Shown: positions 1 to 49,781 of the stretch, piece after piece
Layout: each line of letters starts with the position of its first letter
Position numbering within the stretch: position 1 is the first letter of the stretch
DNA from: Candidatus Poribacteria bacterium
GTDB taxonomy: Bacteria > Poribacteria > WGA-4E > UBA9662
Length of the DNA stretch: 64,000 bases
Direction of reading: 5' to 3'
NCBI GenBank assembly: GCA_046582655.1
Contig: JAYGDX010000089.1
Coordinates: forward strand, 20,129-84,128
Translations under genes and position numbers: made by a program
Notes under the pieces: generated by a model
Seen by the model: the letters and a program-made list of their open reading frames with translations, nothing else
Database searches by the model: none
Told to the model about the DNA's origin: nothing

Positions 1-1443
1 CAATAATTAAACCAATATCATTTTCCTGACTGCTCTGCTTTGAGCTTGGCATATCGATGACTATAGTAAGCTTTTTACCATCAGGCCGGAGTCGAACCCC
101 ATCTTTATCTCGCTTCGTTAATCCCATTTCGTTCAACAAATTGTTTGCTTCTTCAATATTGAAATCTGCGTCTGCTTTCTTCCATCTTTCGAAAAGTTCC
201 TGTCCCATTGCATCAGTAAAGTGCCAACCCTCCTGACTTACCGTTGCTGCTTGTGCTTGCAACAGACCACGCCAAGCGATTTGATTGCACTTGTTCCGAT
301 CAATACCTAGCGCTAGAGCTTTACGGAAACGTTGATCCCGCATCAGTTTACGTAGTACCGGATCTGGATCGGTCCAATTGAGTAAGATCGCTGGTTGTGC
401 TCCAGCAGTGGTTTCCCACCTTAAGACTTTATAGTCCCCACGTTCTTGGCCTTCTATGTACAAGGCCAAGTCTCTTATCTCTGCTCCTCTAAACTGACAG
501 TCAATCTCACCAGCAAGGATTTTTAAGACCCGAACCTGAGGGTCCGGCACAAGACTGGTTTTGACCCTATCAATGTATGGCAGTTGTCGTCCTAGTGAAT
601 CGACCGCATAATAATATGGATTTCGCTCAAATTCGACTCGGTATCCACCTTTTGCGTTCTCAATCATCCTCCATGGCCATAACGTCGGCCGCTTTGGATT
701 CTGATGGTTCAAATCTCGCATTTGGAACTGCTTGAAGTTTTTGTATTCGGAATAATCTGGATGGAATTCAATCATGTAATGCCTGGGAATGTTGTATTTT
801 TCGGAATGCCAAAATCCAGTTCCCAACCATAGCGGTACCAACCAGTTTGGTCCGGCAAATTTCATAACAATAGTATAATCATCTGGCGTTTCAATCTCCA
901 TCGGTTCGCCGTCGACAAGACACCAAACTGGTGGCTCATAACTGTGACGTGTATCCAAACAAAGTTGATAGAAGAAAGCAAATGATTCGGAGGTAAAAGG
1001 GTGACCATCTGACCACCTTATTCCTCGACGCAAATGTATGGTTAATACGGAACCATCTTGGTTAAATTCCCAAGCTTCTGCTGTACCAGGTTCCAAACCT
1101 GAACAATCGAACTTCCAGCGAATCAACGGAGCGTACCCACCAATCATTTTCCAAGATCCAAGTTCGGGATGATTGTGGAACCTGTGCCAGGTACCACCGT
1201 AGATCCCAGGTTGCTCGTAGCCGTCAAAGTCAGTTTTCGCAACCAGTGGGTTTTCAGGAATCCGTTCTGCAAGTGATGGCAGTTTTCCTTCCTCCACCAT
1301 TCTAGTCAGCATCGGCGCTTCTCTGGCCTCTAAACCGTTTGGATAAGCTGATAGATCCTGCTTCCTCGCCGTTTGGTCTGAGCAACCAAAAATAAAAATA
1401 ATGCTACTCAGAAAAATATATCTGATTGTTTTGATCAATTTCA
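1..1443 (-). CDS. ABC transporter substrate-binding lipoprotein, family 5 (peptide/nickel, OppA/DppA-like). The C-terminus runs off the window start.
   Basis: My own minus-strand translation from the ATG at 1443 gives MKLIKTIRYIFLSSIIFIFGCSDQ..., a lipoprotein signal with an IFGC lipobox. The open frame continues to position 1. The composition is typical of SBP family 5. It sits 2 bp downstream of the VTC gene on the same strand. Confidence 0.75.
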
Positions 1444-1445
1444 TA

Positions 1446-2138
1446 TCAGGTTAGTGTTCTCTCGATTCCATTGACATATTTTGAATTCCTGGTCATCCTG
1501 AACGGAAAATGGTTAGTAATTGCATCTGCGCCCGCATCCTTACTGAAATCGTATTTCAGTTCAAGAACGGTGCTGATTTTATCTGAATCCTGTTGAAAAA
1601 GAGTTTGGGAATGTGAGTTTACTGTGTTGCATTCCATACCTGAATCGATAGTGATACGATAGTGCCCATCCCATGATCTATAGTATTTTCGGAGATAACG
1701 ATTCAGCAGATGGGGGTTCAAAGAAGAGACATATGCTTTTATCGAATCCGGAAGATCTGAATTTCTGATCAAACCGTTTATACCTCCCACCCCAATTTGT
1801 TGGTTAATCAAAAATGAGGATAACGGAAACAATTTTTTTGCACCGAGGAATCCTTTCTTAAACTTAAATTCTAACATGGGTTCTTTCACAGACCTAAAAA
1901 AACGACCATACCAGCGAATCCGAATTTTTATCCGATTTCTTAAACCTTCGACGCTGTCACGGTAGTTTCGCATTCCAAAGCTGTCAAGGTAAATATTGTT
2001 TACCCAACGTGGATGATGTATTTCGGAAAACATTGCTGGATGAAATCTAACAATTAGTTCTATCTCCTGTTGTGACAATTTAGACACAGCGAACTTCCGT
2101 TCGTAACGCCAAGTTTTGATATCAAACAGTTCTATCAT
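1446..2138 (-). CDS. VTC-domain (CYTH-like, polyphosphate-polymerase-like) protein
   Basis: The track ORF is 1446..2168. I prefer the internal ATG at 2138, giving MIELFDIKTWRYERKFAVS..., which is the usual start of bacterial VTC-domain proteins (the E-x-K-F CYTH-like N-terminal motif). It is co-located with CotH and DUF4956 genes. Confidence 0.6.
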   Translation of the reverse strand: MIELFDIKTWRYERKFAVSKLSQQEIELIVRFHPAMFSEIHHPRWVNNIYLDSFGMRNYRDSVEGLRNRIKIRIRWYGRFFRSVKEPMLEFKFKKGFLGAKKLFPLSSFLINQQIGVGGINGLIRNSDLPDSIKAYVSSLNPHLLNRYLRKYYRSWDGHYRITIDSGMECNTVNSHSQTLFQQDSDKISTVLELKYDFSKDAGADAITNHFPFRMTRNSKYVNGIERTLT

Positions 2139-2418
2139 GTTGCTTTTTGCCTTACATCTATTACTCAAAACAGATAGGGTGGGAAGAGTGGAAAGTCAAT
2201 TGCCACGAAAATCCAGAACCTAGGGTAACTACATTGGGTGACATTTGTCAGCAGATCTTTATAGAAAAAACGATATCGACGACGAGCAAAAAACATACCT
2301 AGATATCCAGTCAGTTGATTTATATTTTGAGAAATTAACTGGCATAGATCGAATCTCTTTTCTACAAATTAATGATGAGTGGAAAGCAGAAGGCAAACGG
2401 CAAAAAATTAACCAGAGA

Positions 2419-5070
2419 TCACAACATGCTCTTCTCATCTTTAACACCGTACAATATCTTTTTGACATCTTCTTGGTATGTGTTTATTTTCTTCTGATTG
2501 ATAACTATAGCCGACTTTTCTTCAACAAGGTACAATGTCTTTATATTTTCCATCTCAAGGTGTGTTGCCATTATCAGTCCACCGCTAAATTCCGGTTTTT
2601 TTTGAAAGGCTACCAAACCATAGTGGGAATTATCTATCTTGAGTTGATCAACGCTCACTTGAGATAGGTCTTTACTTGCCAAACCGATCTTGGCATTTTT
2701 AATATCCACTCGATGAACAAGCATTTCACTGTTCTCTCCAGCACTAAGTCCTTTATCGCCACATCCATCGATTGTAACATCTTTGACCTGAACTATACTG
2801 CCAGACACATCAATAGCATCATTCCCGCAATGTAAAAAAGATGATTCCATGACCTCACCTTCACAGAAATCGATATCAAGCGCATCAGAAAATGAATGGC
2901 TAAAAACCGTATTTCTAATCATGAATTCCGATCTCATAATATGGAGACTGTCCTCAGATCTTGAGCCAATGAACTGACAGTTGGCAATCTGAACTGGTGA
3001 TTCATAAAATGTAATTGCTCCTGTCAACTCCCAACCATTTTTTGCAGAGGCTGCCAAATTGTGAAACTTGACGAACTTTAGTACCGACTGCTCTGAAGAG
3101 CTCATAACCGTTAAACCCTGTCCCGACGAGTTGTCAGACGAAATGACAATCGGTTCCTCTTCGTTACCGATAAAATAGATCGAAGAGTAAGAAAGGATCG
3201 TAGCGGAATCGATTAAATTGATCTTTACACCTGACGGACAAACTAGATGATAGTCCTCCGGCACTATCAGGTCTTGATCAATCGTCCATGTTCCCCTTTG
3301 AATAGAAATTTGCTTTAATTCTTCGTTGATTTTCAAGAAATCAAATGCATGGATATTAGATGATTGCCGGATAAAATCATGCTTTGCGAAATCATTCCGC
3401 ATGTAAGACCAGGGAAAGACAGTTTCGGACCTTGTCTGATCCGTTCCCAAAATCCGGTAATTAATTTTTAGATTAGATCTCATACTATCATCCCACGCAA
3501 AATCTGCCGGAATCCCAAATTTGATGTTCTGATAATTTGTGAGTTTCCTCGGCACTTTGGCGGGAAGAATGATCTTCCCATTAGCTTGAAATGTAACTGA
3601 GTCCTTGTATGAAACGCTATCGACCTCAATTGGCAGGGGCTGGATGCTTGCTACCTGAAGCTCAATTTCATTTTCATCTACCCTATATTGATAGGCATGC
3701 AGTCCCTTGACAGGATTTAGAATTGCTTTAATGTATTCTTGGTTCTCTCTATACACCTTTTTCGAAAAATGAGGCCGAAAAAATTCACTTTTAAGAATAT
3801 TAAGATTAATAGCGAGATTTACATCTAAAGACGCGAACAGATTATCGAGATAAGCAGGTTCTGAAATCCGATTTAGCGCTTTGACATATCGACGAAAGAA
3901 TGTTTCATCGTAAAAAACCCTTGCATAATAGCTATGTCCAATTTGTGACGCATGGTTTCCAAGGTAATTTCCGTTAATTGTGGCACACAATGACCTAACA
4001 GGTTGACCTGCATTTCCATCAAACCCAATAGGCTGTAATTTCGAGGTTATAGGATTATAATAGAATCTTGCATTATGCCAACGTGAACCGTGTTCAGCTC
4101 CCATTAGATCGGTAAGAGCAAAGAATTTAGCCAGTTTCTCAACATCGAAAACCTGACTGGTCTTTAATTGTCCCCGACGAAATAACTCCAGTAGATGCAC
4201 TGCTTTGAGATACTGTTTGTGATTACTTGGTTTCGAAATCCACTTCGTTGTTTGAAATGTATCGATACCACTTGAGAGGTAAGACCCGCTGCTCATCTTA
4301 GCTTGATTAAATGCACTTTTTTGTGCTATTTCTTTCCAGAAAAATTCTTCATTGAATCTGACGATTGGTCCGTCATGTAACTGGTTATGACCTAAAAGAT
4401 ATTCGTCAAAATGTTCTTCTAAGGCATAAATGCCTAGATCCTCTTGGTTCAAGACAACTCTAATAAACTGATAACGCAACCCCAGAAGACCTTCTCTTCT
4501 CAATGTTTGATGGAAAAGCCATTCATTAAGATAATTCCGTGTTTTGGGATGATGTATGGAAAACCTTTTCATTCCCAAAATAGTGTTATTTCCTTTAACA
4601 ATGATTCGGAATGACCATTTTTTACCTTGAAGATGATCTATGTGGTCGCCTTTTAGGCGAAGTTTGACCTTTATTGCCTCATCTCCATGTTGTATCATCG
4701 CTGGAACATAGTCGGCTTTCGTAACAAACAATTTATCTTTTCTCAAAGCACGTTCTCTTTGAAGAGACAGGCTGCGAAAGTTTTTAGGCTTGATATCTAT
4801 TCGAATCTGATCTGCTTTTTTCGTTTGTCGTATTCGCGAGAAACTGACAGAGACAAAAATTGCAAACGAATCGCGAACCGATTTTATGTTATCCTCGAAT
4901 TCACTATAGCAATGACCTCCATAAATGAATATTAATAAGCTGTATACCATGAATAGAGAACCTATAAACAGGTAGAACGATAGTTTCCAAGATCGGGCAT
5001 TCTTGAGAAGCCAATTTTTTTTGCCCTTTAATGAAATCCAGTGCTGCCCATCGGAATTTTTGATTTCCAA
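2419..5070 (-). CDS. CotH kinase-family protein with an N-terminal membrane anchor and a C-terminal right-handed beta-helix-like region
   Basis: 883-aa ORF with a TTG start and GGAG 9 nt upstream. It has an N-terminal hydrophobic segment (SFYLFIGSLFMVYSLLIFIYGG). The central region has CotH-like motifs (HNQLHDGPIVRFNEEFFWKEIAQ..., GFDGNAG, YYNPITSKLQPIGFD). The C-terminal third resembles beta-helix repeats (NAKIGLASKDLSQVSVDQLKIDNSHYG, GNDAIDVSGS). Confidence 0.65.
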   Translation of the reverse strand: MEIKNSDGQHWISLKGKKNWLLKNARSWKLSFYLFIGSLFMVYSLLIFIYGGHCYSEFEDNIKSVRDSFAIFVSVSFSRIRQTKKADQIRIDIKPKNFRSLSLQRERALRKDKLFVTKADYVPAMIQHGDEAIKVKLRLKGDHIDHLQGKKWSFRIIVKGNNTILGMKRFSIHHPKTRNYLNEWLFHQTLRREGLLGLRYQFIRVVLNQEDLGIYALEEHFDEYLLGHNQLHDGPIVRFNEEFFWKEIAQKSAFNQAKMSSGSYLSSGIDTFQTTKWISKPSNHKQYLKAVHLLELFRRGQLKTSQVFDVEKLAKFFALTDLMGAEHGSRWHNARFYYNPITSKLQPIGFDGNAGQPVRSLCATINGNYLGNHASQIGHSYYARVFYDETFFRRYVKALNRISEPAYLDNLFASLDVNLAINLNILKSEFFRPHFSKKVYRENQEYIKAILNPVKGLHAYQYRVDENEIELQVASIQPLPIEVDSVSYKDSVTFQANGKIILPAKVPRKLTNYQNIKFGIPADFAWDDSMRSNLKINYRILGTDQTRSETVFPWSYMRNDFAKHDFIRQSSNIHAFDFLKINEELKQISIQRGTWTIDQDLIVPEDYHLVCPSGVKINLIDSATILSYSSIYFIGNEEEPIVISSDNSSGQGLTVMSSSEQSVLKFVKFHNLAASAKNGWELTGAITFYESPVQIANCQFIGSRSEDSLHIMRSEFMIRNTVFSHSFSDALDIDFCEGEVMESSFLHCGNDAIDVSGSIVQVKDVTIDGCGDKGLSAGENSEMLVHRVDIKNAKIGLASKDLSQVSVDQLKIDNSHYGLVAFQKKPEFSGGLIMATHLEMENIKTLYLVEEKSAIVINQKKINTYQEDVKKILYGVKDEKSML

Positions 5071-5107
5071 CTAATATGTCTCCATAGATGAGCGCCAGCA
5101 GATGGCG

Positions 5108-5785
5108 TTAGCTATTGTCTATAAATGAGATGCGCATTGAATCATTAAGCCCCTGCAACTCAGATTTACTCATCTCTAGTTGTGAATAATTCTCAAAACC
5201 AACCAGAAATGATGCTTCCAATAAATTCGAGTTTTCGTCAAATCTCTTTAAATTAACATCCGTACAATGCTTCTGAAGCACTTTGATGATAACATTAAGT
5301 TCGTTTCCATCCTGAGTTGGACTTGAAATTGTAAGATATAGGTTTTGGCCATTTTCCATATTATTTTGATTTATATTTCTCAGCCAGATTATCGCAATAA
5401 TTGTTAGTAATGTAACAATTGTGATGATAGCTTGATTTGCTCCAATACCCATCCCAATTGCAATAGTGAGAAACAGATATGAAAGTTCTTCTGGTTCTTT
5501 GATTGCTGTTCGGAACCTAATGATTGAAAGTGCGCCAATTAAGCCTAGCGAAAGTACGAGTGATGATTTTATAATTGTAATGATAAACATTGTTGTCATT
5601 GTAATCGGCAAAAAATTTCGAGCGAATTGTTTTCGGTTGGAGAGTGCTGATCCGTATTTGGCATAAACCCAACCTAAAACTAACGACAGAACTGCGGACA
5701 GAAACAGGTTGAAAATCATGATCCAAACGGAGACTTGTTCGGCCGCGTTAGCTGACAATTCTTGTAAGATCGGTAAATTTCTCAC
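5108..5785 (-). CDS. DUF4956-family integral membrane protein
   Basis: 225 aa, GTG start, several TM helices, and the characteristic IIRFRTAIKEPEE motif. It lies between the ABC ATPase and CotH genes. Confidence 0.6.
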   Translation of the reverse strand: MRNLPILQELSANAAEQVSVWIMIFNLFLSAVLSLVLGWVYAKYGSALSNRKQFARNFLPITMTTMFIITIIKSSLVLSLGLIGALSIIRFRTAIKEPEELSYLFLTIAIGMGIGANQAIITIVTLLTIIAIIWLRNINQNNMENGQNLYLTISSPTQDGNELNVIIKVLQKHCTDVNLKRFDENSNLLEASFLVGFENYSQLEMSKSELQGLNDSMRISFIDNS

Positions 5786-5876
5786 AAAGGAGTTATTAGC
5801 CTCATATCATGAGATCGTGAAATAATTGGATAGAGGGAGATTAATTTAACGTTGGTGATCAGTTGCATCTAACTTG

Positions 5877-6875
5877 CTAGATACCTTGAAGAGACAATTC
5901 ATCATGTAGATGACACGCTACCTCTGATCCTGATGTGGTCGTTTCAAGTCGCAGTTCCTCTCGCGAACATATATCCGTCGCATAGCCACATCGCGGATGG
6001 AAATGACATCCCAATGGGGGATTAGATGGATCTGGAACATCTCCTTCAAGTCTAATTCTTTTTCGTCCCCGTTGTATCTCTGGATCCGGCATTGGAACAG
6101 CCGATATCAGCGCTTCGGTATATGGATGTTTCGGATGATGGTAAACTTCGTGTGCAAGATTAGTTTCCACAATCCGACCAAGGTACATGACAGCAATACG
6201 GTCACTGATATGCTCTACAACACTTAAATCATGGGCGATGAAGATATAAGAAAGCTGAAATTCCTCCTTCAGTTCCTCCAGCAAGTTGAGAATCTGAGCT
6301 TGGATCGAAACATCCAGTGACGAAACTGGTTCATCCGCAATAATCAGTTCTGGTCGTAATGCTAATGCCCGTGCAATTCCAATCCTCTGTCGCTGTCCTC
6401 CGCTGAAAGCGTGTGGATAACGACGCATATCATCTTTCTGTAACCCGACTGATTCAAGCAAGTTAACAACTCGGTCTTCTGTTTCGGACCTATTTGAAAC
6501 TTGATTAACATAGAGGGGCTCAGCAACGATGTCACCAACAGTCATCCGTGGATTAAGAGACGAATATGGATCTTGAAAAATCATCTGTATTCTGCGTCTA
6601 TACGGCTTCAATTCGGCCTGAGTCAGTTGGCAGAAATCAATCTGCTCCTCACCAAACAAAACCTCGCCATCAGTTGGCTCTATTAGCCGCATCAAGCAGC
6701 GACCAGCTGTGGTTTTCCCACAGCCGCTTTCTCCAACCAATCCAAGGGTTTCGCCACGGTGCACATCAAAACTCACGCCATCTACCGCTTTTACATAGCC
6801 AGCCTGCTTTTGCAATATGCCACGTCGAATTGGAAAGTATTTCTTTAGGTTTTTAACTTGAAGAATTTTTCTCAT
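5877..6875 (-). CDS. Oligopeptide/dipeptide ABC transporter ATP-binding protein (OppF/DppF-like)
   Basis: Walker [10 protein letters not shown], the signature FSGGQRQR, Walker B LIIADEP, and a C-terminal oligo-HPY region ([15 protein letters not shown]). Confidence 0.85.
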
Positions 6876-6895
6876 GCTTTAATTTCACATACACT

Positions 6896-7888
<993 letters not shown>

Positions 7889-7938: not shown

Positions 7939-10900
7939 CTAGTTTCCTGCTAATACCTTGAAGTTCCCAACATCCTCAAGAATTAGCAGGCCGAGACTAC
8001 TGGGAGGAACTGACTCAGTATTGGGCATTTGTTCGGCCCAATAAACCGATCGTTCATCTGACCGGTGAATGATGAAATTAAAACCCAGCTTATTGTTTCG
8101 TTTCATTTTTATGGGATCAAATCCTTTAAGTATAGGATAGAAAGGGAGGCGTGCCTCGATCATATAATAATTTTCCTGCTCAGTCACGGCTATTTGTAAT
8201 CCCTTAGCTTCATAATTCGGAACCAGTCTGGGTGCAGACTGTCCGAAATATGGCCGGCTACCATTAAAGCCGCCGCCCTTCGGACAAACCCAAAAAATGA
8301 ACCGATCCGAATCACCTTGGCTGTCGAGGTAATCAGGCCTGTGTTCATGTATCGGGTGGAGGTCAATATGGAGTTCAAGTGCATCAGAACCTTGATAGTA
8401 TCGAATTGGATCACCCACTTCAACTTGATTGTCATAAATTTGTGCTAGAAAGTATAGTGAGTCTTGATCCCATTGTAGCCACAATAGACCTTCATTTTTT
8501 GGAGTCACGATTGCCTTTTCGAGTGGCCATTGATCATCAAGACCATCAATGACGACGGGTTTATTGGTTCTTGCTGCCCAAGCAATCAAATTCGATCGGC
8601 ACATGGTTGTTATCTCAACATTTGTTTCACCAGTCTCAATTAAACGATCATCGTAAATCATGGCAATCATTTCCCCACCGGTCAATCCAAGCTCATTGGA
8701 TTCATTGATATCTCGTCCATATGCTGTTTGAATTGATCCACGAAATATCCGGGAATTTTTACTCTCTTCCAGAAGCACAATATGACTACCTGTTTCCATT
8801 TCATTGACCCGTACTCGCAAATTGGCTGATTCAGTTATAGAAGGGTCAACATTGAGATCCTGATCTTCCAAGCGGAAATAAAGTGTGGCGCCAATATTAA
8901 AATTCCGAAGCACTGAACCGTCTTTACGGGTGACAGTTAAATTGCCACGGATCCCTTTATTAGCGTAGGTAATATCCTCGACAGTTGTTGCGTTGATGGC
9001 ACTAAATTGAGGCGAATAGATGGCAGTTACTGCTTCTTCTCCTTGGACGTCAAGTGTGTCATCTGCGACTGCTGTTCTTCCATAGCGGGTTGGAACGACC
9101 CCCCAAAATACGCCGTTTTGGTTCGGCTTCTTTTCTAGTACTACATCAACCTGATCTTGTGTTCGGTTCCCATAAATAGTGATCGTCACTTCACTTGCGT
9201 CAACGACAGTACTGAGAAGAAGATCTTCAAGCCAGAAGTAAAGCAGATCTCCAGCCATAAAACTGCCGACTTCACTTTCATTGTCATCGGTAATCTTTAG
9301 AATGCCTTCATTACCGCTGAGCACAATAGCCTGCACCTTTGTCATTATTCCGGTTTCACCAGTTGCTGTGAGTGCGTCCAAATAGCTTATAGCAATCACT
9401 TCCTTATCAGTAAGCACCAATCCAATTGGATCGGTATTTGCCTGATTACTAGTTGTGAAGGTTCCTGCAAAGATACCGGAATTTTTGTTTGTTTCGTGCA
9501 GACTAATAACCTTCTCGTTTCCCAGTACATTTCCACGAACAGTTACTTTTGTTGACTCAATTTTTTCAGGAAAGAGATCTAAATCTTTATCAGTTAACCG
9601 AACCAACAGTTGTTCGCTATTATTGAAACTTCCGATACCAACAGAGAAATTGCTGATTAAACGAAGTGATTCGACAGTATAAATTTCAATATCACCGGTT
9701 TCTCCCACCGCTACCATCAGATCAACACGGATTTTCACCTGTGTTGCGCCGGTATCCTGTAAGGCATCAGTATACACAAAGGTGACAATGTCACCGCCTT
9801 GAACCTGCAGGACACCATCATTCACAATTGGGTTCGAGCCGTAATCAGTTTTTAGTCGACCGCGAAAGACACCTGCGTTTCCAAAAACCCCCCACATCGT
9901 TATCCTTATCCTATCACGAACCGTATTTTCGGTAAGATCGGTTTCGAATACCTGAGCCACTACGTTTGTTGTATCCAGATCTGCATCTTTGATTTCAAGG
10001 ATCAGCGTGTCACTCGCACGAAAACGGTTTATTGGAGAATTCAACATGGAATCTGGATTAAAACCTGATTCATTATAAACATGAATATTTCCAGTCGTCC
10101 CAACGTTTGTTTCACAGGTATCAACAATCTCGATATTTGTTTCACCAGTTGCCCTCAAACCATCAAGATAGACAGCCTGAATTTTTTCTGCCCCTTTTAC
10201 CTGAATTACTCCATCATCAATTTGCGCTTCGGTGCTATATAGCGTAGGAATAGAACCGGAAAAGTTCCCTTCGGCAGACGTCGAGAACAACACTAACTTC
10301 TCCCGATCGTTTAGCATATTACCACTAAGAGCAATCGCAATAACATCCTGAACGATGTCCTTATCACGAAGACGCAAGTGAAGCATGTTTCCAGCGTTGA
10401 AATTCTCCAGATCAGTCACCTGATTTGATTGTACAATCCCAATGATCCCATCATAGCCAGTCACGGCCTGAGCGACTCTCGAAATCAAGACTCCAGTCTC
10501 TCCGGAACCCCGAATTTGATCGACGTAACCAACCGTAACTTTTTCACCACCGACTACTTCGAGTTTATTGTTTTTAGTGTCAGCTTTTATTGCATATGTC
10601 GTTTCGACAGAGGCGATAAAAATACTGCTATCAGCATCGGTTTCAGTCAAAGCCAGTCTATATTGATCCTGTAATTGATCCCCTTCAATTATGACATCAA
10701 TGATTTCTTTTTGCGTTAAATCTTGATTGAGATCCGTATCTTGGAGTTCAATTTGTAGTGGAGTTCCTGCTTTGAAAAGCATGTCTCCGGGTATCAGTCT
10801 TCCGTTGATATTTAATTGTGCGGTATCGCCAATTTTTACCGTTTTTTGAGTTTGAATTGTTACATTGGCTTCACCTGTTTCTCGCAGTTGATCCACATAT

Positions 10901-13716
10901 ATGGCACTAATCGTCTGCATCCCAACTGCTTGAAGTATCATGTCATTTGGATCAGAAGTTTCACTGTAGACAGTTGTGAACTGTCCAGAATGATAGTTAT
11001 TTTCTGAATCAAACAAAAGTTTAAGTGATTCACTTTCATCAGTTCCGATTACTGCGAGCTCCACCTCGATCTCGCTACTTTTTGACACGTCGGCATCTTG
11101 AACAATAATATGAAGTTTCGAACCCAGTTCAATCATCTTAGCCGGTCGTTCGACATTATTAATGAAGATTTTACCGTCGTTCCCGCTGGTTGCAACCACT
11201 GTTGCTTCAACCAGCTTGTTTCGTTCGTCACGACTGAAATAGGGATCAATGTAAGTCAATAGAATTTCGTCATTTCCACGTACTTTTAATATATCCAACG
11301 AACTACCTTCTGCATCGGAAGTATCTCGCTCTTTTTCAAAGACTGTTACAACCCGAGTGGTGAACAGAGAACTATTTTCAGATCTATTACCCCTAACATC
11401 ATCAATTAGGGTAGTAAAATCAGTCTCATATAATGCAAGACGCATGGTTTGGCTAGTAGTGGTATTCGTTAATGCGGCTTGAATTGACTCCGACTCTGCG
11501 CGGTCGGTGTTACTATCTGCATCCCACACACATAAGCTAATTACATCACCCGCTGTAAAAGTGAATATGGGCATTAGCAACCGTTCATCCATAAACACAA
11601 CCCGACCGCTAATTTGGCTGACCAGTTCAATTACATTCCAATCACTGGGTGAAGCGTTTACATCACCAGATGCATAAGCAAAACTACGATCTCCCACAGA
11701 ATAGATGTAATTGAATCCAATCGATTTGCCAATGTCGGGAATATAATTCTGAAGAACCAGATCTTTTGGAAGACATACTTCTAGGTTATATCCCTTGTCT
11801 GTCGGCATGATTTTGGCGTCGATATATTTATGGAAGTTAATATTCTTAGGGATGGCATCCATGTGGTGGTGAATCTGGGTGGGATGAACGAAAAGTTGAT
11901 TTGTGTCCGATCCGTAGATTGTCAAAACGAAATGGTGGTCACTTGTTTTGTACATGCCAGTTGAAGCTTTTCTGGTAGAATCGCAAAAGATATGAATGAC
12001 ATCGCGATCCGTACTTTTAAGATCGGCATGTTTGATAGTAGCAGCAATATAAAAATTTTCTTCGTTCCATTGGGTGTAGAGCGTAACTAGATCTTGTATT
12101 GGTTTAGCATCTAAAAAACGGCCAAATTTTTTGGGATCCGGATCAATTTCACGTGCCATGTGTGGATACAAAAGGTGCCAATCTTCTATATAACCATCAA
12201 TTACGATCTCTTGATTCACCTTAATGGCACGACCAATCTGATCGTTTGACAATTGCTGAGACTTTACCATTTCAGAACCAGAGATTTTGATCGGTCGAGC
12301 TTCATATAGCCGTACTTCGGAAACGACTGCATTGGGACCGGCAATTCGATTAAAATGAAGTTCCATACGTCCGTCGGCATAGGCCTCAGAGGGAATGGGA
12401 ATAGTTCTTGTGCTGAAATCTCCTACAGGTATTTCAATTGCCGGATGAAGGATGTGCCCATCAACCAGAAGATCCTGAATACGTGTTCCACCATTCTCTT
12501 GCAGATATTCCACCTCTACCCAATAGAGCATCCAAGGTTTAAGTTGATTGTAGCCAACTTTTACAGCGTTATAATGGTAAGAGAAACTTCTGGCGGAATT
12601 AGGATTACCCGGATTAACTTTGTCAGGCTCTCCACCTTCAGCAAGAAAATATCGATTTTCGCCACTGGTATCCCGATCAAAGGCAAATCCCTGTATCAGG
12701 TGCGGAGCTAAGATGTTATTTGCCTCACCAAGCCGCTCATGTTGCATCTGGATAGCGTTGTAATCCCTAAGTTCCCTCTCTAAACTATTAGGACGATAGT
12801 CTTTAGTATAGACCTCAAATTCGCGAATCTCAGCATAATCACCATGCCAATCACCATTTTCAATTTGTAAACGAATATAACGTCCCTTCATCGGCATATC
12901 AAAGAGATGTTGATCTGCCACAGTCTCATCCGGTAATTCCTGAGATATATAGATATTCTGATAATCCTGTCCATTCGAACTGATAGCAATTGAGTAGGTC
13001 TTAACGTTGTCTCCGGGACCATCAGTAGTCAGCTGAAACCCGTATATCTTTTGAATTTCGCCGATATCTGCGGTAACATAAACAGGTGTTTCCGGCGGTT
13101 TGTATTTTATCTCAACTTCTTCCCCTCCGTCCTCGACTTCAGTTTCTATTCGTTGCGCCGCCGCCCATTTTGAATCTCTGAAAGGAATTAGATCCTTTAG
13201 CATAGACAACTCAACTTCATTATAATTGGAAGTCATCGATTGAATGGGTGTATGGGATTTGTATCTTAATCCAACTTGAAAATCATCGACTTTTAAATTC
13301 GGTCTATTATTAAACCAGTCATTGATCACAACCTGAATCCAACGCGCTTCAGTTGGAAACTGAAAACGCTGCAGCGCGAAATTGTATTCACGTGAACTAC
13401 CAACATAAGAAAAGGCACGTGTAAAACGTGATTTCGATCTGTCCTTTCCTACTAATATATCAAACTGTTTCGGTCCACTTTCATTTGGGTCTTCAAATCG
13501 AACCTTAACTTTGTCAACCAGGTAGACATAACCGAGATCATAGGTGGCAAAGGGAGGGTCGCTCCTGAGCAAATCTGCCGACCGGAGGGATTCATCATCC
13601 ATCTTGCGAACGGGCTTGATGAAGTATTGGTTTGTTCTCAGATTAACTTTATTTCGCGGATAAAACAGAAAACCTAGTAGGATTGCGATACTGCTGAGGA
13701 AAAGATACTTAGCCAC
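7939..13716 (-). CDS. Giant (1925 aa) repetitive cell-surface protein. It has an N-terminal signal anchor, discoidin-like and CBM9/DOMON-like domains, about 12 tandem ~110-aa beta-sandwich repeats, and a C-terminal CBM9-like domain.
   Basis: A single uninterrupted ORF. The N-terminus is MAKYLFLSSIAILLGFLFYP. Internal repeats share the motif ...NSGIF.G.I.T.YG....DDGVLQVQGGE.I.A.Y.D.L..TGET.V.I... at least 12 times. F5/8-C-like segments end in ...IREFEVY. CBM9-like segments include WHLLYPHM and LWLQWDQDSLYFLAQIYD. Confidence 0.85.
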   Translation of the reverse strand: MAKYLFLSSIAILLGFLFYPRNKVNLRTNQYFIKPVRKMDDESLRSADLLRSDPPFATYDLGYVYLVDKVKVRFEDPNESGPKQFDILVGKDRSKSRFTRAFSYVGSSREYNFALQRFQFPTEARWIQVVINDWFNNRPNLKVDDFQVGLRYKSHTPIQSMTSNYNEVELSMLKDLIPFRDSKWAAAQRIETEVEDGGEEVEIKYKPPETPVYVTADIGEIQKIYGFQLTTDGPGDNVKTYSIAISSNGQDYQNIYISQELPDETVADQHLFDMPMKGRYIRLQIENGDWHGDYAEIREFEVYTKDYRPNSLERELRDYNAIQMQHERLGEANNILAPHLIQGFAFDRDTSGENRYFLAEGGEPDKVNPGNPNSARSFSYHYNAVKVGYNQLKPWMLYWVEVEYLQENGGTRIQDLLVDGHILHPAIEIPVGDFSTRTIPIPSEAYADGRMELHFNRIAGPNAVVSEVRLYEARPIKISGSEMVKSQQLSNDQIGRAIKVNQEIVIDGYIEDWHLLYPHMAREIDPDPKKFGRFLDAKPIQDLVTLYTQWNEENFYIAATIKHADLKSTDRDVIHIFCDSTRKASTGMYKTSDHHFVLTIYGSDTNQLFVHPTQIHHHMDAIPKNINFHKYIDAKIMPTDKGYNLEVCLPKDLVLQNYIPDIGKSIGFNYIYSVGDRSFAYASGDVNASPSDWNVIELVSQISGRVVFMDERLLMPIFTFTAGDVISLCVWDADSNTDRAESESIQAALTNTTTSQTMRLALYETDFTTLIDDVRGNRSENSSLFTTRVVTVFEKERDTSDAEGSSLDILKVRGNDEILLTYIDPYFSRDERNKLVEATVVATSGNDGKIFINNVERPAKMIELGSKLHIIVQDADVSKSSEIEVELAVIGTDESESLKLLFDSENNYHSGQFTTVYSETSDPNDMILQAVGMQTISAIYVDQLRETGEANVTIQTQKTVKIGDTAQLNINGRLIPGDMLFKAGTPLQIELQDTDLNQDLTQKEIIDVIIEGDQLQDQYRLALTETDADSSIFIASVETTYAIKADTKNNKLEVVGGEKVTVGYVDQIRGSGETGVLISRVAQAVTGYDGIIGIVQSNQVTDLENFNAGNMLHLRLRDKDIVQDVIAIALSGNMLNDREKLVLFSTSAEGNFSGSIPTLYSTEAQIDDGVIQVKGAEKIQAVYLDGLRATGETNIEIVDTCETNVGTTGNIHVYNESGFNPDSMLNSPINRFRASDTLILEIKDADLDTTNVVAQVFETDLTENTVRDRIRITMWGVFGNAGVFRGRLKTDYGSNPIVNDGVLQVQGGDIVTFVYTDALQDTGATQVKIRVDLMVAVGETGDIEIYTVESLRLISNFSVGIGSFNNSEQLLVRLTDKDLDLFPEKIESTKVTVRGNVLGNEKVISLHETNKNSGIFAGTFTTSNQANTDPIGLVLTDKEVIAISYLDALTATGETGIMTKVQAIVLSGNEGILKITDDNESEVGSFMAGDLLYFWLEDLLLSTVVDASEVTITIYGNRTQDQVDVVLEKKPNQNGVFWGVVPTRYGRTAVADDTLDVQGEEAVTAIYSPQFSAINATTVEDITYANKGIRGNLTVTRKDGSVLRNFNIGATLYFRLEDQDLNVDPSITESANLRVRVNEMETGSHIVLLEESKNSRIFRGSIQTAYGRDINESNELGLTGGEMIAMIYDDRLIETGETNVEITTMCRSNLIAWAARTNKPVVIDGLDDQWPLEKAIVTPKNEGLLWLQWDQDSLYFLAQIYDNQVEVGDPIRYYQGSDALELHIDLHPIHEHRPDYLDSQGDSDRFIFWVCPKGGGFNGSRPYFGQSAPRLVPNYEAKGLQIAVTEQENYYMIEARLPFYPILKGFDPIKMKRNNKLGFNFIIHRSDERSVYWAEQMPNTESVPPSSLGLLILEDVGNFKVLAGN

Positions 13717-36472: not shown

Positions 36473-37681
36473 ATGCCTCTAATTGAACCTGACGGTGGGG
36501 AATTGATTAATCTCATCGTTCCAGAAAATCAAAGATCCGAAAAAAAATCGGAAGCTGAGTCATTGCCAAAAATGGTCATCAACGAATATCATTTGCAATG
36601 GATCCACATATTAAGTGAAGGGTGGGCAAATCCACTTACCGGATTTATGCGTGAGAATCAGTTTTTACAAACAATCCATTTTAATACCATACGGCAACCA
36701 GATGGCACGCTCGTTAATCAATCCGTTCCGATTACGCTCGATATCTCAGATCAGGATTGCGATCGTCTGCAAAACGCCGACGCAATTACACTGGCAAAAT
36801 CAAATGATGAGCCTGTGGCGATTTTACGAGATCCGGAGTTTTATACCAACCCGAAAGAAGAATACGCTGCCCGAACGATTGGATTTACGCATGTCGGCCA
36901 CCCAACGGTCGAACGAATTATGAAAATGAGTACGCAGTTGGTTGGTGGGGATCTCGAGGTCCTCAGACCAATCGTCTATAACGATGGGCTTGATCACTAT
37001 CGTCTGTCACCCGCTGAATTACGTGCAGAATTCGAAAAGCGTGGTGCAGACGCGGTTTATGCTTTTCAACTCCGAAATCCGGTTCATAATGGCCATGCTT
37101 TACTAATGAACGAAACAAAAGAGCAACTAAAAACACAAGGATACAAAAACCCTGTGCTTCTGTTGCATCCGCTTGGAGGATGGACGAAAGAAGACGATGT
37201 TCCTCTAGATGTCAGGATGCGTCAACATGGTGCAGTACTTGAAGATGGGATATTGGATCCGATCTCAACAGTTGTTTCCATTTTTCCCAGCCCCATGCTT
37301 TACGGTGGGCCGACAGAAGTTCAGTGGCACGCCAAAGCCCGAATCAATGCCGGGGTGAGTCACTACATCGTTGGGCGTGATCCCGCGGGGATAACGCATC
37401 CGGAGACGGGTGAACCTGTCTACGACCCGTTTCACGGCATGAAAGTCCTGCAGATGGCTATCGGTCTGGAAAAACTGGAAATCATCGAGTTCAAATTTGC
37501 CGCTTATGACAAGGTTTCCGGCAAGATGGGATTCTTTGACCCTAGCCGAGCTGACGATTTTCTGATGATTTCTGGTTCACAAATGCGGGAATACGCACGA
37601 AACAAAGAGACACCTCCAGATGGATTCATGGGTAAAAAGGCTTGGCAGGTTATTGCAGAATACTATGCCTCAATCAATTAG
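36473..37681 (+). CDS. sat: Sulfate adenylyltransferase (ATP sulfurylase, homo-oligomeric Sat type)
   Basis: N-terminal PUA-like region with ...WANPLTGFM. Catalytic motifs AFQLRNPVHNGHALL and GRDPAG. About 400 aa, consistent with Sat. Confidence 0.8.
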   Translation: MPLIEPDGGELINLIVPENQRSEKKSEAESLPKMVINEYHLQWIHILSEGWANPLTGFMRENQFLQTIHFNTIRQPDGTLVNQSVPITLDISDQDCDRLQNADAITLAKSNDEPVAILRDPEFYTNPKEEYAARTIGFTHVGHPTVERIMKMSTQLVGGDLEVLRPIVYNDGLDHYRLSPAELRAEFEKRGADAVYAFQLRNPVHNGHALLMNETKEQLKTQGYKNPVLLLHPLGGWTKEDDVPLDVRMRQHGAVLEDGILDPISTVVSIFPSPMLYGGPTEVQWHAKARINAGVSHYIVGRDPAGITHPETGEPVYDPFHGMKVLQMAIGLEKLEIIEFKFAAYDKVSGKMGFFDPSRADDFLMISGSQMREYARNKETPPDGFMGKKAWQVIAEYYASIN

Positions 37682-49187: not shown

Positions 49188-49781
49188 TCAACTATTTTCA
49201 AAATGGACAAAATCAATTAGAAAGACCGCGCCTAAAAGCACGCTTTTTTGATTAGGATCTGCATCCGGCGGAAATGTGATGCCGAAATTGTCGGAGTCAG
49301 TGAAGGTTTCTTTCAAAAGCCCGCTCCACTTTTTGGTAATGTGCCCAATCTCTCTTTCATCTCGGTAGATATTGAAAGTCCACGGATGAAGCAGAGGGCC
49401 AAAGAGCTGATATATTTCCTGTCCTGATGAATCTTTTACAGAGTATATTCGACGCAAAATTGAAAATTGCCTTTTAACTGTTCCGACTAACTTTCCTTGA
49501 TTATCGAAGATCTCAGCAACATGAAAATAAAATCGGAATGGTCGGTACAGTGAAAGAACACTTTCGCCTTGCATGTCCAAAATACGCATCCTGAAAGGCC
49601 GCAGTGCCTTCAAAAACCACCTCAGGAGAAAAAAGCCACCCTCTTCTGCGGCCAGGAATAGCTCTTCTCCGGATGAACTCATAACCACATAACGGTTTTT
49701 AGTTTCGAAGTTGGTAATAATTTCTCCCCATTCTTTCTTTTGCTGGATAGCGAGTGCGTTGAGCGATTCAAGCCTCTCCAT
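49188..49781 (-). CDS. Phospholipid scramblase-family / LURP-one-related-like protein
   Basis: 197 aa. It resembles bacterial scramblase-family (PF03803-like) proteins: 12-stranded barrel sequence periodicity and a C-terminal hydrophobic helix (VLLGAVFLIDFV). Weak, recall-based assignment. Confidence 0.45.
   Translation of the reverse strand: MERLESLNALAIQQKKEWGEIITNFETKNRYVVMSSSGEELFLAAEEGGFFLLRWFLKALRPFRMRILDMQGESVLSLYRPFRFYFHVAEIFDNQGKLVGTVKRQFSILRRIYSVKDSSGQEIYQLFGPLLHPWTFNIYRDEREIGHITKKWSGLLKETFTDSDNFGITFPPDADPNQKSVLLGAVFLIDFVHFENS

What the first reader, a model, noticed from the sequence alone, without database searches (positions are those of the whole stretch)
1446..5785. DUF4956 membrane protein, membrane-anchored CotH-family kinase with beta-helix, and VTC (polyphosphate-polymerase-like) domain protein as a three-gene module
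Seen in sequence: three consecutive minus-strand genes. The first is a multi-TM DUF4956 protein with the IIRFRTAIKEPEE motif. The second is an 883-aa CotH-family protein with an N-terminal TM anchor and a C-terminal parallel beta-helix-like region. The third is a VTC/CYTH-like domain protein starting MIELFDIKTWRYERKFAV. Established knowledge, from my recollection of Pfam genome-context notes rather than anything verified here: CotH proteins are atypical protein kinases, and VTC-domain and DUF4956 genes frequently neighbour CotH genes in bacteria. The function of the trio is unknown. Inference: VTC tunnel domains synthesise polyphosphate, and in eukaryotes this is coupled to membrane translocation. 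A DUF4956 (membrane) plus VTC (catalytic) pair could therefore synthesise and export polyP to the compartment where the anchored CotH kinase domain sits. That would make an extracytoplasmic phosphorylation system whose phosphodonor is not ATP. This is speculative but testable.
Basis: partly seen in the sequence, partly recalled or inferred. Interest (0 to 1): 0.6.

Follow-up and report, generated by a model that had tools for sequence, protein, structure and literature searches.

The report
CotH–VTC–DUF4956 cell-envelope gene cassette
Three adjacent genes in a marine Poribacteria genome form a cassette, found intact in hundreds of bacterial and archaeal species, that pairs a polyphosphate-polymerase-like enzyme and a membrane protein with a surface-anchored kinase-like protein. 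Its chemistry is untested, but it may carry phosphate chemistry to the outside of the cell.

Summary
Window 5785..1446 (minus strand) encodes three proteins. One is a DUF4956 membrane protein. One is an 883-aa protein with a TM anchor, a CotH domain and a beta-helix. One is a 230-aa VTC (triphosphate-tunnel) protein. All three pass Pfam thresholds.

The trio is a strongly conserved unit. At least 555 species genomes encode the same CotH architecture. Of 42 well-flanked loci, 35 carry both partners, and 29 have the same order D-C-V. Hosts span about 20 phyla, including archaea, CPR and Prochlorococcus.

The VTC protein keeps the Vtc4 catalytic-tunnel residues. Charge bias places the CotH/beta-helix part outside the cell. 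About 18 of 80 loci add an exported metallophosphoesterase.

The whole clade lacks the canonical CotH catalytic Asp (G/A/S instead, with an invariant His next to it). DUF4956 is a distant MgtC relative, not a VTC-type channel.

The trio's co-occurrence is already published for Pel loci of Gram-positives. The non-Pel, cross-domain beta-helix form and its altered active site are not. Polyphosphate export feeding an ecto-phosphotransferase remains plausible and testable, but unproven.

The parts
5108..5785 (-). Gene D: DUF4956 membrane protein (225 aa). It has five predicted helices and a C-terminal beta-alpha-beta-beta-alpha-beta (ACT-like) domain. It is a distant MgtC/YhiD relative.
   Evidence: Pfam PF16316 E=1.2e-17. 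NCBIfam MgtC/SapB E=4e-4, far below its cut-off. 33 of 45 family members weakly match Pfam MgtC and 3 match ACT_4. Secondary structure comes from a low-confidence model. Identical protein P0121 is annotated as a DUF4956 protein.
5486..5518 (-). Conserved motif R90-F-R92-T-A-I-K96-E-P-E99-E100 of DUF4956. It is predicted to lie at the cytoplasmic end of helices 3 and 4.
   Evidence: R90, F91, R92, A94, E99 and E100 are invariant and K96 is at least 90% conserved in 45 sequences. The side of the membrane is inferred from the positive-inside rule and helix positions.
2419..5070 (-). Gene C: 883-aa type-II-anchored protein. Order of parts: short cytoplasmic tail, TM, CotH-like domain, beta-sandwich, right-handed beta-helix.
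   Evidence: Pfam CotH and Beta_helix. AlphaFold model pLDDT 90, pTM 0.76. Foldseek against B. cereus CotH 5jda gives E=1.2e-11, TM 0.68. 3363 cluster representatives match at E<=1e-30.
4915..4983 (-). Single TM anchor (L30-G52) of the CotH protein. Predicted orientation is N-terminus in, C-terminus out.
   Evidence: Best 19-mer hydropathy in the family averages 2.4, and there is no second hydrophobic segment beyond residue 100. K+R is 4.2 on the N flank and 2.5 on the C flank.
3718..4812 (-). CotH-like (protein-kinase-like) domain, residues 87-451.
   Evidence: A profile of 43 relatives hits 5jd9 at E=1.9e-10 over residues 25-348 of 359. Fold match.
4018..4092 (-). Active-site stretch H327-G328-S-R-W-H-N333-A-R335 ... 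D351. Asn and the metal-binding Asp are kept. The canonical catalytic Asp is replaced by Gly, with an invariant His before it.
   Evidence: Gap-free HMM alignment to 5jd9 (FDGFVHN...WDYD). Column counts in 88 relatives: H327 84 of 84 aligned; position 328 is G36/A26/S17 and never D; N333 79; D351 83. The roles of Bsu D228 and D251 are taken from PMC7821199.
3346..3717 (-). Beta-sandwich linker domain, residues 452-575.
   Evidence: Model secondary structure. This is the least conserved folded part, at 42% mean pairwise identity.
2476..3345 (-). Right-handed parallel beta-helix, residues 576-865. It carries a ladder of invariant acidic and basic residues: D707, D729, D732, D734, D751, D754, D772, K773, E779, K800, D801, K825, E827, E850.
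   Evidence: Pfam Beta_helix. Invariant columns. Fold matches to GH87, tailspikes, AlgG/AlgE4, PL6, GH28 and NosD. It is as conserved as the CotH domain (53% against 54% identity).
2139..2418 (-). Intergenic gap between genes C and V. It is unusually long (280 nt) and contains a block of about 80 nt conserved in related Poribacteria. In most other lineages C and V abut or overlap.
   Evidence: Sequence. Alignment with L001 and L002. Gene spacing elsewhere. No terminator-like site on the minus strand.
1446..2138 (-). Gene V: 230-aa stand-alone VTC (triphosphate tunnel metalloenzyme) domain protein. It has no signal peptide or TM, so it is cytoplasmic.
   Evidence: Pfam PF09359 E=6.4e-22. A profile of 50 relatives hits yeast Vtc2 (3g3o, 2.2e-8) and Vtc4 (3g3q, 4.1e-7), with catalytic residues aligned. 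Invariant R11, E13, K15, K71, R73, R75, E90, K92, K101, R150, Y152, R161, T163, D165, E193, K195, S219, K220.
5877..7888 (-). Flanking context, not part of the cassette: two Opp-type ABC ATPase genes immediately upstream (7888..6896 and 6875..5877).
   Evidence: Pfam ABC_tran and oligo_HPY. The same arrangement is seen in Poribacteria locus L001.
1..1441 (-). Flanking context, not part of the cassette: a family-5 solute-binding lipoprotein gene starts 4 nt after the VTC stop codon and runs off the window.
   Evidence: Translation. Pfam SBP_bac_5 E=4e-45.

Best explanation
D-C-V is a self-contained, horizontally mobile envelope module that moves phosphoanhydride chemistry to the outer face of the cytoplasmic membrane.

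Shown:
- The three genes are inherited together across bacteria and archaea.
- V is a cytoplasmic Vtc4-like tunnel enzyme with its catalytic residues intact.
- D is a polytopic membrane protein whose most conserved feature is a basic/acidic motif, together with an ACT-like domain.
- C is anchored by one N-terminal helix, and its CotH-like and beta-helix domains are predicted to lie outside.

Inferred:
- V polymerises polyphosphate from ATP while docked on D.
- D anchors V and passes the chain across the membrane.
- C receives the chain outside. Its CotH-like domain keeps the metal-binding Asp and Asn but uses a non-canonical catalytic arrangement (His327 in place of the usual Asp). It uses polyphosphate rather than ATP as the substrate for phosphoryl transfer.
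- The equally conserved acidic/basic beta-helix holds the polyanion (possibly through bound cations) or the acceptor polymer.
- The acceptor is most likely a surface glycan or surface protein.
- The optional exported metallophosphoesterase trims or recycles the product.
For: Co-conservation:
- 555 or more species genomes encode the same CotH architecture.
- 35 of 42 well-flanked loci carry both partners, and 29 are strictly D-C-V.
- Independent Pfam gene calls show 1-nt gaps or overlaps between the genes.
- Pairwise-identity matrices correlate: V-D r=0.76, C-D 0.55, C-V 0.48. None of 500 permutations reached these values.

Individual proteins:
- V: Vtc4 catalytic equivalents are invariant, and there is no export signal.
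- C: one TM segment with a positive-inside bias; CotH fold; D351 and N333 are kept and several extra invariant Arg/Lys are present.
- The beta-helix is as conserved as the catalytic domain even though host envelopes share no common polymer. This points to a ligand that the cassette itself supplies.

Context:
- An exported metallophosphoesterase with GD/GNHD motifs and Sec- or Tat-like N-termini sits inside the cassette in about 18 of 80 loci.
- The cassette recurs inside surface-glycan clusters: Wzx, Wzy, GT2/GT4, deacetylase, sulfotransferases.
- In S. intermedius, deleting the D and C homologues changes Pel level and aggregation.
- From established knowledge: ATP is not available outside the cytoplasmic membrane, so an ecto-phosphotransferase needs another donor.
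Against: - No biochemical data exist for any prokaryotic VTC-domain or DUF4956 protein in the literature I could search.
- DUF4956 resembles MgtC, a regulatory protein, not a channel. Its model is poor (pLDDT 56).
- The canonical catalytic Asp is absent, so C could be catalytically dead or could do different chemistry.
- No CotH-family enzyme is known to use polyphosphate.
- Five of 42 well-flanked loci have C without D or V nearby, and two more have D but no V (also L085).
- Deleting the VTC homologue in S. intermedius gave no aggregation phenotype.
- The nearest neighbours of the cassette are highly variable, so a link to glycans is recurrent but not general. In this window there is no glycan cluster nearby.
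- Topology rests on hydropathy and charge bias only.
Confidence: 0.33

Rival explanations
1. Polyphosphate is the end product, not a donor. D+V deposit polyphosphate in the periplasm or on the cell surface, where it could serve as a phosphorus or cation store, a matrix cross-linker, or a partner for cationic polymers such as Pel. C is a non-kinase polyphosphate-binding, anchoring or length-controlling scaffold. The metallophosphoesterase is the matching polyphosphatase.
For: - The catalytic Asp is missing in the whole clade.
- The beta-helix has an invariant charged ladder and a universal distribution.
- An exported metallophosphoesterase is an optional member. From my own knowledge, yeast vacuoles pair VTC with a metallophosphatase-type endopolyphosphatase, Ppn2.
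- Phosphodiesterase, alkaline-phosphatase and phytase-like genes lie next to the cassette in some loci.
- Hosts include phosphorus-limited marine plankton: Poribacteria and Prochlorococcus.
Against: - The invariant metal-binding Asp351 and Asn333, and 18% of CotH-domain columns conserved at 95% or more, look like a live active site rather than a decayed one.
- C occurs without D or V in some loci.
- There is no measurement of surface polyphosphate in any host.
Confidence: 0.2
2. C is primarily a polysaccharide-active enzyme. The beta-helix would be a lyase, hydrolase or epimerase, or a glycan-binding module, that remodels an exopolysaccharide. The CotH-like domain is an accessory binding domain. 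V and D act separately in the cytoplasm and membrane, as an MgtC-like regulator plus a tunnel enzyme, to tune phosphate or energy state during matrix production.
For: - The beta-helix matches GH87 glucanases, tailspike depolymerases, AlgG/AlgE4 epimerases and PL6/PL9 lyases.
- The cassette is often embedded in glycosyltransferase/Wzx/Wzy clusters.
- It is Pel-linked in Gram-positives.
- DUF4956 is distantly related to MgtC.
Against: - Fold matches to carbohydrate enzymes are weak (E 1e-5 to 1e-2, TM 0.2-0.4). No known catalytic motif (GH28 NTD/DD/GHG/RIK, AlgG DPHD) is present, judged by my inspection of the invariant residues.
- A lineage-specific glycan substrate does not fit a beta-helix that is 53% identical across phyla and domains.
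- This reading does not explain tight D-C-V translational coupling or the V-D co-variation.
Confidence: 0.15
3. This is the reading in the Pel literature. C is a conventional ATP-dependent Ser/Thr protein kinase that regulates polysaccharide production by phosphorylating proteins. V and D are general phosphate-metabolism genes.
For: - CotH of B. subtilis is a protein kinase, and its D228Q and D251A mutants are inactive (PMC7821199).
- This suggestion is made in 10.1101/768473 and PMC12345266.
- The fold and the metal-binding Asp are conserved.
Against: - The catalytic domain is predicted to be outside the membrane, where ATP is lacking.
- The Asp equivalent to D228, whose mutation inactivates CotH, is absent.
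- The cassette occurs far from any polysaccharide genes, including in this window.
Confidence: 0.08

Closest known systems
Accessory gene set cotH / polyphosphate polymerase (VTC) / DUF4956 (+DUF4832) next to pelDEADAFG in Streptococcus, Clostridium and Bifidobacterium (Whitfield et al. 2020; S. intermedius SIR_1592-1594, mBio 2025). Probably also VTC-'tubulin'-CotH in C. perfringens NELoc-2.
   Same: The same three protein families are encoded side by side. CotH is predicted to be secreted or extracytoplasmic. DUF4956 is described as an MgtC-like TM domain with an ACT domain. Function is unknown.
   Different: There are no pel genes anywhere in this window. Gene order is D-C-V rather than C-V-D. 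CotH is TM-anchored and fused to a beta-helix rather than to FN3. There is no DUF4832 hydrolase. The distribution spans about 20 phyla and archaea, which contradicts the published remark that the trio is not found outside Pel loci.
Eukaryotic VTC complex (Vtc4 polyphosphate polymerase coupled to a membrane channel of Vtc1/2/3/4 TM domains)
   Same: It has a VTC-type triphosphate tunnel domain with the catalytic Arg/Lys/Tyr/Ser residues conserved. The catalytic unit is genetically coupled to a membrane protein. The proposed logic is the same: synthesis on the cytoplasmic side coupled to translocation.
   Different: The tunnel domain stands alone (230 aa) with no SPX domain and no fused TM domain. 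The membrane partner is DUF4956/MgtC-like, and no DUF202/VTC-type TM family appears among the listed Pfam matches. Neither polymerase activity nor translocation has been shown for any prokaryotic member.
Bacillus CotH spore-coat protein kinase (PDB 5JD9/5JDA)
   Same: It has the same Pfam family and the same atypical kinase-like fold. The equivalents of Asn233 and the metal-binding Asp251 are conserved.
   Different: Bacillus CotH acts in the mother-cell cytoplasm on coat proteins with ATP. Here the domain is predicted to be an ectodomain. It lacks the Asp228 equivalent, has an invariant His one residue earlier, and carries a beta-sandwich and a beta-helix.
Secretory-pathway kinases Fam20B/Fam20C and POMK (works-like comparison only; from my own knowledge)
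   Same: These are kinase-fold enzymes that act in an extracytoplasmic compartment. Some phosphorylate glycans, and some lack canonical kinase motifs yet are active.
   Different: They use ATP imported into the Golgi or ER. No homology beyond the general kinase-like fold was tested here, and they have no polyphosphate partner.
MgtC/SapB/YhiD family
   Same: It shares a five-helix membrane domain followed by a small cytoplasmic ACT-like domain. There are weak sequence matches, and JGI names homologues YhiD-like.
   Different: All matches are far below family thresholds. The signature motif RFRxAIKEPEE is specific to DUF4956. MgtC is known as a regulator of the F1Fo ATPase and PhoR (as cited in PMC12345266), not as a partner of a tunnel enzyme.

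Membership tests
CotH family (Pfam PF08757; atypical protein kinase) | Sequence match to the family model above the curated threshold | tested here: met
   38.3 bits against a cut-off of 23.8, E=1.5e-9, residues 137-403. A profile of relatives hits 5jd9 at E=1.9e-10.
CotH family (Pfam PF08757; atypical protein kinase) | Kinase-like fold of B. cereus CotH | tested here: met
   Foldseek against 5jda gives E=1.2e-11 and target-normalised TM 0.68, using a model with pLDDT 90.
CotH family (Pfam PF08757; atypical protein kinase) | Catalytic Asp (B. subtilis D228; the D228Q mutant is inactive) | tested here: not met
   This position aligns with Gly328. It is G/A/S and never Asp in 88 relatives, with an invariant His327 adjacent. 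The role of D228 is taken from PMC7821199.
CotH family (Pfam PF08757; atypical protein kinase) | Metal-binding Asp (B. subtilis D251) and catalytic-loop Asn | tested here: met
   D351 is present in 83 of 88 and N333 in 79 of 88. The N-to-D spacing of 18 residues is the same as in 5jd9.
CotH family (Pfam PF08757; atypical protein kinase) | ATP-dependent Ser/Thr phosphorylation | not testable with these tools
   This needs biochemistry.
VTC / Vtc4-type polyphosphate polymerase (Pfam PF09359, triphosphate tunnel metalloenzyme) | Full-length match to the VTC domain model | tested here: met
   78.7 bits against a cut-off of 23, covering profile positions 2-232 of 235. The family profile hits Vtc2 (3g3o, 2.2e-8) and Vtc4 (3g3q, 4.1e-7).
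VTC / Vtc4-type polyphosphate polymerase (Pfam PF09359, triphosphate tunnel metalloenzyme) | Tunnel residues of Vtc4: R264, R266, K281, Y359, R361, R373, S457, K458, and the catalytic K200 | tested here: inconclusive
   R73/R75, K92, Y148/R150 and R161 align in the significant stretch. S219/K220 align with ...SKF... only in a weak second stretch. All are invariant or nearly so in 50 relatives. Assigning K15 in RYERKF to K200 is an inference, because the N-terminus was outside the local alignment. The Vtc4 residue numbers come from my knowledge of Hothorn et al. 2009.
VTC / Vtc4-type polyphosphate polymerase (Pfam PF09359, triphosphate tunnel metalloenzyme) | SPX domain and C-terminal VTC-type TM domain in the same polypeptide or complex | tested here: not met
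   Only the VTC domain is found in the 230-aa protein. The partner membrane protein is DUF4956, and no VTC-type TM family appears among its listed Pfam matches.
VTC / Vtc4-type polyphosphate polymerase (Pfam PF09359, triphosphate tunnel metalloenzyme) | Polyphosphate synthesis from ATP | not testable with these tools
   This needs an enzyme assay. No report for a prokaryotic member was found.
DUF4956 (Pfam PF16316) | Match above the curated threshold | tested here: met
   64.6 bits against 30.6. All 45 neighbours of CotH genes that were tested match.
MgtC/SapB family (Pfam PF02308) | Match above the curated threshold | tested here: not met
   12.8 bits against 31.4 for the window protein. 33 of 45 relatives give sub-threshold hits, the best at E=6.9e-4. 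NCBIfam gives 20.1 bits against 214. This is a distant relationship only.
Pel-locus accessory module (cotH-PPP-DUF4956 contiguous with pelDEADAFG) | Contiguity with pel biosynthesis genes | tested here: not met
   Most window ORFs of at least 150 aa were scanned against Pfam, including all within about 20 kb of the trio. None is a pel gene or a glycosyltransferase near the trio. The flanks are Opp-type ABC genes.
Anti-phage defence systems (PADLOC) | Match to any known or candidate defence protein model | tested here: not met
   No hit for D, C, V or the optional phosphoesterase. The cassette is also absent from viral contigs and plasmids.

The most novel reading that the evidence does not exclude
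The cassette is a prokaryotic polyphosphate synthase-translocase. A Vtc4-like tunnel enzyme is docked on an MgtC-like membrane protein. It feeds a membrane-anchored ecto-enzyme of the kinase fold that uses polyphosphate instead of ATP. Catalysis may run through the invariant His327 that replaces the usual catalytic Asp, possibly as a phospho-histidine intermediate. The enzyme would phosphorylate or polyphosphorylate surface polymers. This would be an ATP-independent extracytoplasmic phosphorylation system shared by bacteria and archaea.
Probability: 0.22. Interest if true: 0.88.

Novelty: new variant of a known kind. Interest (0 to 1): 0.6.

Why it matters
How bacteria and archaea could carry out phosphoryl transfer outside the cytoplasmic membrane, where there is no ATP, is an open question. 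So is the purpose of the many secreted CotH-like 'kinases'. Prokaryotic VTC-domain proteins would also be a third, unstudied route to polyphosphate besides PPK1 and PPK2.

This cassette puts all the candidate parts in one tightly coupled operon. It occurs in thousands of protein clusters and in cultured hosts: Methanogenium marinum DSM 15558 and Prochlorococcus MIT 9314. The hypothesis is therefore directly testable. The work here also corrects a published statement that the trio is confined to Pel loci. It warns that the 'kinase' label does not transfer, because the catalytic Asp is missing.

Tried and rejected
- PDB sequence searches with the full-length CotH profile and with single sequences found nothing. 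Only domain-restricted or family profiles worked. The DUF4956 profile has no solved relative.
- The AlphaFold model of DUF4956 was too poor (pLDDT 56) for a fold search, so none was run.
- Model coordinates are not exposed, so I could not inspect the geometry around His327.
- Nguyen et al. 2016 (the CotH structure paper) is not held. The D228 and D251 roles were taken from PMC7821199.
- I looked for gene fusions among V, D, C and the phosphoesterase as Rosetta-stone evidence and found none.
- I looked for a fixed fourth partner or a dominant neighbouring family. There is none apart from the optional metallophosphoesterase.
- A defence-system reading was rejected. Phage or plasmid carriage was not found.
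- No Rfam family and no internal terminators were found.
- The overlapping plus-strand ORFs (2245-2667, 4687-4935, 5466-5666) were treated as shadows of the three genes.
- The TTG start at 2168 for the VTC gene was rejected in favour of ATG 2138, because homologues are 230 aa and conservation begins at RYERKF.

Full report
**What is there.** On the minus strand the window carries three consecutive ORFs. D is at 5785..5108 (225 aa), C at 5070..2419 (883 aa) and V at 2138..1446 (230 aa from the ATG).
- Pfam assigns D to DUF4956 (E=1.2e-17) and V to the VTC domain (E=6.4e-22, full-length match).
- Pfam assigns C to CotH (E=1.5e-9, residues 137-403) plus Beta_helix (E=1e-7, residues 714-825). All four matches are above the curated cut-offs.
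- Identical proteins are annotated in a Candidatus Poribacteria MAG.

The trio lies between two Opp-type ABC ATPase genes (7888..5877) and a family-5 solute-binding lipoprotein gene that starts 4 nt after the V stop codon. The same arrangement is seen in related Poribacteria. G+C over 2-6 kb is 0.38, against 0.43-0.45 in the flanks. No pel gene or glycosyltransferase cluster lies near the trio.

**It is a conserved unit, not a chance adjacency.** The 883-aa architecture (TM, CotH, beta-sandwich, beta-helix) is conserved end to end at 35-54% identity.
- Hosts include Poribacteria, KSB1, Anaerolineae, Planctomycetota, Gemmatimonadota, Omnitrophota, Bacteroidota, Proteobacteria, Clostridia and CPR lineages. 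They also include Prochlorococcus MIT 9314 and archaea (Methanogenium marinum DSM 15558, Methanosarcinales, Woesearchaeota, Nanoarchaeia).
- An exhaustive HMMER search finds 3363 cluster representatives at E<=1e-30.

In the 80 best loci I called ORFs and searched them iteratively with the window's V and D proteins.
- Of 42 loci with at least 4.5 kb on both sides, 35 have both V and D within 7 kb on the same strand, and 29 are strictly D-C-V. Two have D only and five have neither.
- Independent gene calls with precomputed Pfam labels show the same D-C-V order, with 1-nt gaps or overlaps.
- Pairwise-identity matrices of the three proteins across 58 loci are correlated. The correlation is strongest for V against D (r=0.76), then C-D (0.55) and C-V (0.48). 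None of 500 label permutations reached these values. Shared ancestry contributes to these correlations.
- The cassette is absent from viral contigs, plasmids and defence-system models.

**What each part looks like: V.** V has no signal peptide or TM segment.
- A profile of 50 relatives matches yeast Vtc2 and Vtc4 tunnel domains (2.2e-8 and 4.1e-7).
- R73/R75 align with Vtc4 R264/R266, K92 with K281, Y148/R150 with Y359/R361, and R161 with R373 in the significant stretch. S219/K220 align with S457/K458 only in a weak second stretch.
- These residues are invariant or nearly so in the family, as are E13 and K15 in the N-terminal RYERKF strand.
- V is thus a credible active triphosphate-tunnel enzyme of the Vtc4 type. 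It has no SPX or TM domain.

**What each part looks like: D.** D has five predicted helices and a C-terminal beta-alpha-beta-beta-alpha-beta domain. The model confidence is low (pLDDT 56).
- Its most conserved element is G81..G84ALS..R90FR92xAIK96EPE99E100.
- By the positive-inside rule this motif and the C-terminal domain face the cytoplasm.
- D is a distant MgtC/YhiD relative. 33 of 45 members give sub-threshold MgtC hits, and there is an NCBIfam hit at 4e-4. It has no solved relative.

**What each part looks like: C.** C has one hydrophobic segment (L30-G52).
- Across 101 homologues the 15 residues before the TM carry 4.2 K+R on average, against 2.5 after it. The N flank is richer in 76% of homologues and equal in 17%.
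- This predicts N-terminus in and C-terminus out, so the catalytic part lies outside.
- The AlphaFold model is confident (pLDDT 90, pTM 0.76).
- Its CotH domain matches B. cereus CotH (E=1.2e-11, TM 0.68).
- Its beta-helix resembles carbohydrate-active beta-helices only weakly.

**Two findings that change the picture.** The first concerns the active site.
- The gap-free alignment to 5jd9 (FDGFVHN...WDYD) places the catalytic Asp at Gly328. This is B. subtilis D228, whose D228Q mutant is inactive (PMC7821199).
- In 88 relatives this column is G, A or S and never Asp.
- The preceding His327 is present in all 84 aligned sequences. Asn333 (79 of 88) and the metal-binding Asp351 (83 of 88) are kept.
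- The clade therefore has a conserved but non-canonical active site. 'CotH = protein kinase' should not be assumed.

The second concerns the beta-helix.
- It is as conserved as the CotH domain (53% against 54% mean pairwise identity, with 18% of columns conserved at 95% or more).
- It carries an invariant ladder of Asp/Glu and Lys residues.
- The hosts range from diderm and monoderm bacteria to archaea, and their envelopes share no common polymer. This argues that the beta-helix ligand is universal. The simplest candidate is something the cassette itself makes.

**A facultative fourth gene.** In about 18 of 80 loci a gene of 290-400 aa sits inside the cassette, as C-M-V, M-D-C-V or C-D-M-V.
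- It matches the calcineurin-like metallophosphoesterase family and has GD and GNHD motifs.
- It has Sec- or Tat-like N-termini, so it is exported.
- It is absent from this window.

**Genomic context.**
- Four of five Pfam-annotated metagenomic contigs place the CotH gene, with or without D and V, in the middle of surface-glycan clusters. These include Wzx, Wzy_C, GT2, GT4, polysaccharide deacetylase, and sulfotransferases with ATP sulfurylase.
- The fifth contig (L082), and also L083, place the cassette next to phosphodiesterase, alkaline-phosphatase and phytase-like genes.
- The Prochlorococcus copy sits among sugar-modification genes.
- A census of the two nearest genes on each side in 24 genome loci found no dominant family: GDSL 4 of 93, GT2 3, Wzy_C 3.
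- The Methanogenium and Poribacteria copies have unrelated neighbours.
- The glycan link is therefore recurrent but not obligatory, and the cassette looks self-sufficient.

**Literature.**
- The co-occurrence of cotH, a 'polyphosphate polymerase' and DUF4956 was described as an accessory set next to pelDEADAFG in Streptococcus, Clostridium and Bifidobacterium (10.1101/768473).
- A similar run appears in C. perfringens NELoc-2 (PMC2879425).
- In S. intermedius, deleting the DUF4956 and CotH genes lowered aggregation by more than 50% and changed Pel levels. Deleting the VTC gene had no clear effect. The authors state that they could not find the trio outside Pel loci (PMC12345266). The present data contradict that statement.
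- I found no paper on the biochemistry of a prokaryotic VTC-domain or DUF4956 protein, and none proposing polyphosphate as a CotH substrate. Subscription-journal papers are largely not searchable here.

**Interpretation.**
- V makes polyphosphate at the inner face while docked on D.
- D anchors V and passes the chain outward.
- C handles the chain outside with a modified kinase-fold active site and a conserved polyanion- or acceptor-binding beta-helix, and transfers phosphate to a surface polymer.
- The exported phosphoesterase trims the product.
- Shown: co-inheritance, intact tunnel residues, predicted topology, conserved non-canonical site.
- Inferred: polymerase activity, docking, translocation, donor identity, acceptor.

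The main rivals are these.
- Polyphosphate is the product and C is a non-catalytic scaffold.
- C is chiefly a glycan-active enzyme, and V and D act as regulators.
- C is a conventional ATP-dependent regulatory kinase. This last is the least likely, given the topology and the missing Asp.

**Verdict.** The kind of gene set is already known, but this is a distinct and far more widespread variant, with features (active-site change, beta-helix fusion, optional phosphoesterase, cross-domain spread) that had not been reported in the literature I could search.

Noticed in passing
L004, L007, L010, L015, L019, L023, L029-L031, L042, L045, L053, L056, L058 (strong); L009, L012, L016, L018 (weaker). Example: L019:12686-13771 (+): An exported calcineurin-like metallophosphoesterase gene (GD/GNHD motifs, Sec- or Tat-like N-terminus) is inserted inside the D-C-V cassette in about 18 of 80 loci. 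It is absent from this window.
   Followed up: partly
window 2139-2418, conserved core about 2255-2335 (minus strand): The gap between the CotH and VTC genes is 280 nt here, whereas these genes abut or overlap in most other lineages. It contains a block of about 80 nt conserved in two other Poribacteria (L001, L002). This could be an internal promoter or regulatory element. There is no Rfam hit.
   Followed up: partly
window 1-7888 (minus strand): The cassette interrupts an Opp-type ABC transporter operon (two ATPase genes upstream, a family-5 binding-protein gene downstream). Its G+C is lower (0.38) than that of the flanks (0.43-0.45), which suggests insertion by horizontal transfer. The arrangement is shared with related Poribacteria.
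   Followed up: partly
window 5058-5070 (first residues of the CotH protein) and homologues in alignment A5: The short cytoplasmic tail of the CotH protein starts with a conserved M-x-[I/L]-K motif (M1 and K4 at 90% or more in 101 sequences), although the rest of the N-terminus is only 22% identical. This could be a contact point for the cytoplasmic partners.
   Followed up: no
L012:1-1463 (-) and L012:3325-5001 (+): One gammaproteobacterial locus carries two extra CotH-only paralogues (487 and 558 aa) that lack the beta-helix and also lack His327. They lie beside a full-length copy and a DUF4956 gene on the opposite strand.
   Followed up: no
window 7939-13716 (-) and 13729-16128 (-): A 1925-aa predicted surface protein with an F5/8 type C (discoidin) domain, a long internal repeat-like region and a C-terminal CBM9-like domain lies upstream on the same strand. 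It is preceded by a 799-aa AAA ATPase.
   Followed up: no
window 49188-49781 (-): A 197-aa protein gives a strong full-length match to the phospholipid Scramblase family (PF03803, E=6.6e-51). To my knowledge this family is mainly eukaryotic.
   Followed up: no
window 36473-37681 (+); L083:1297-8882, L084:1605-4990: ATP sulfurylase and sulfotransferase genes recur next to the cassette in other organisms, which suggests sulfated surface glycans. The window has an ATP sulfurylase gene about 30 kb away, probably unrelated to the cassette.
   Followed up: no
window 44551-48089 (-): There is a run of short adjacent or overlapping ORFs with fragments of the same domain types (PKD/Big, Glucodextranase_B, and Reg_prop twice). 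It looks like one large surface or sensor gene split by frameshifts or sequencing errors.
   Followed up: no
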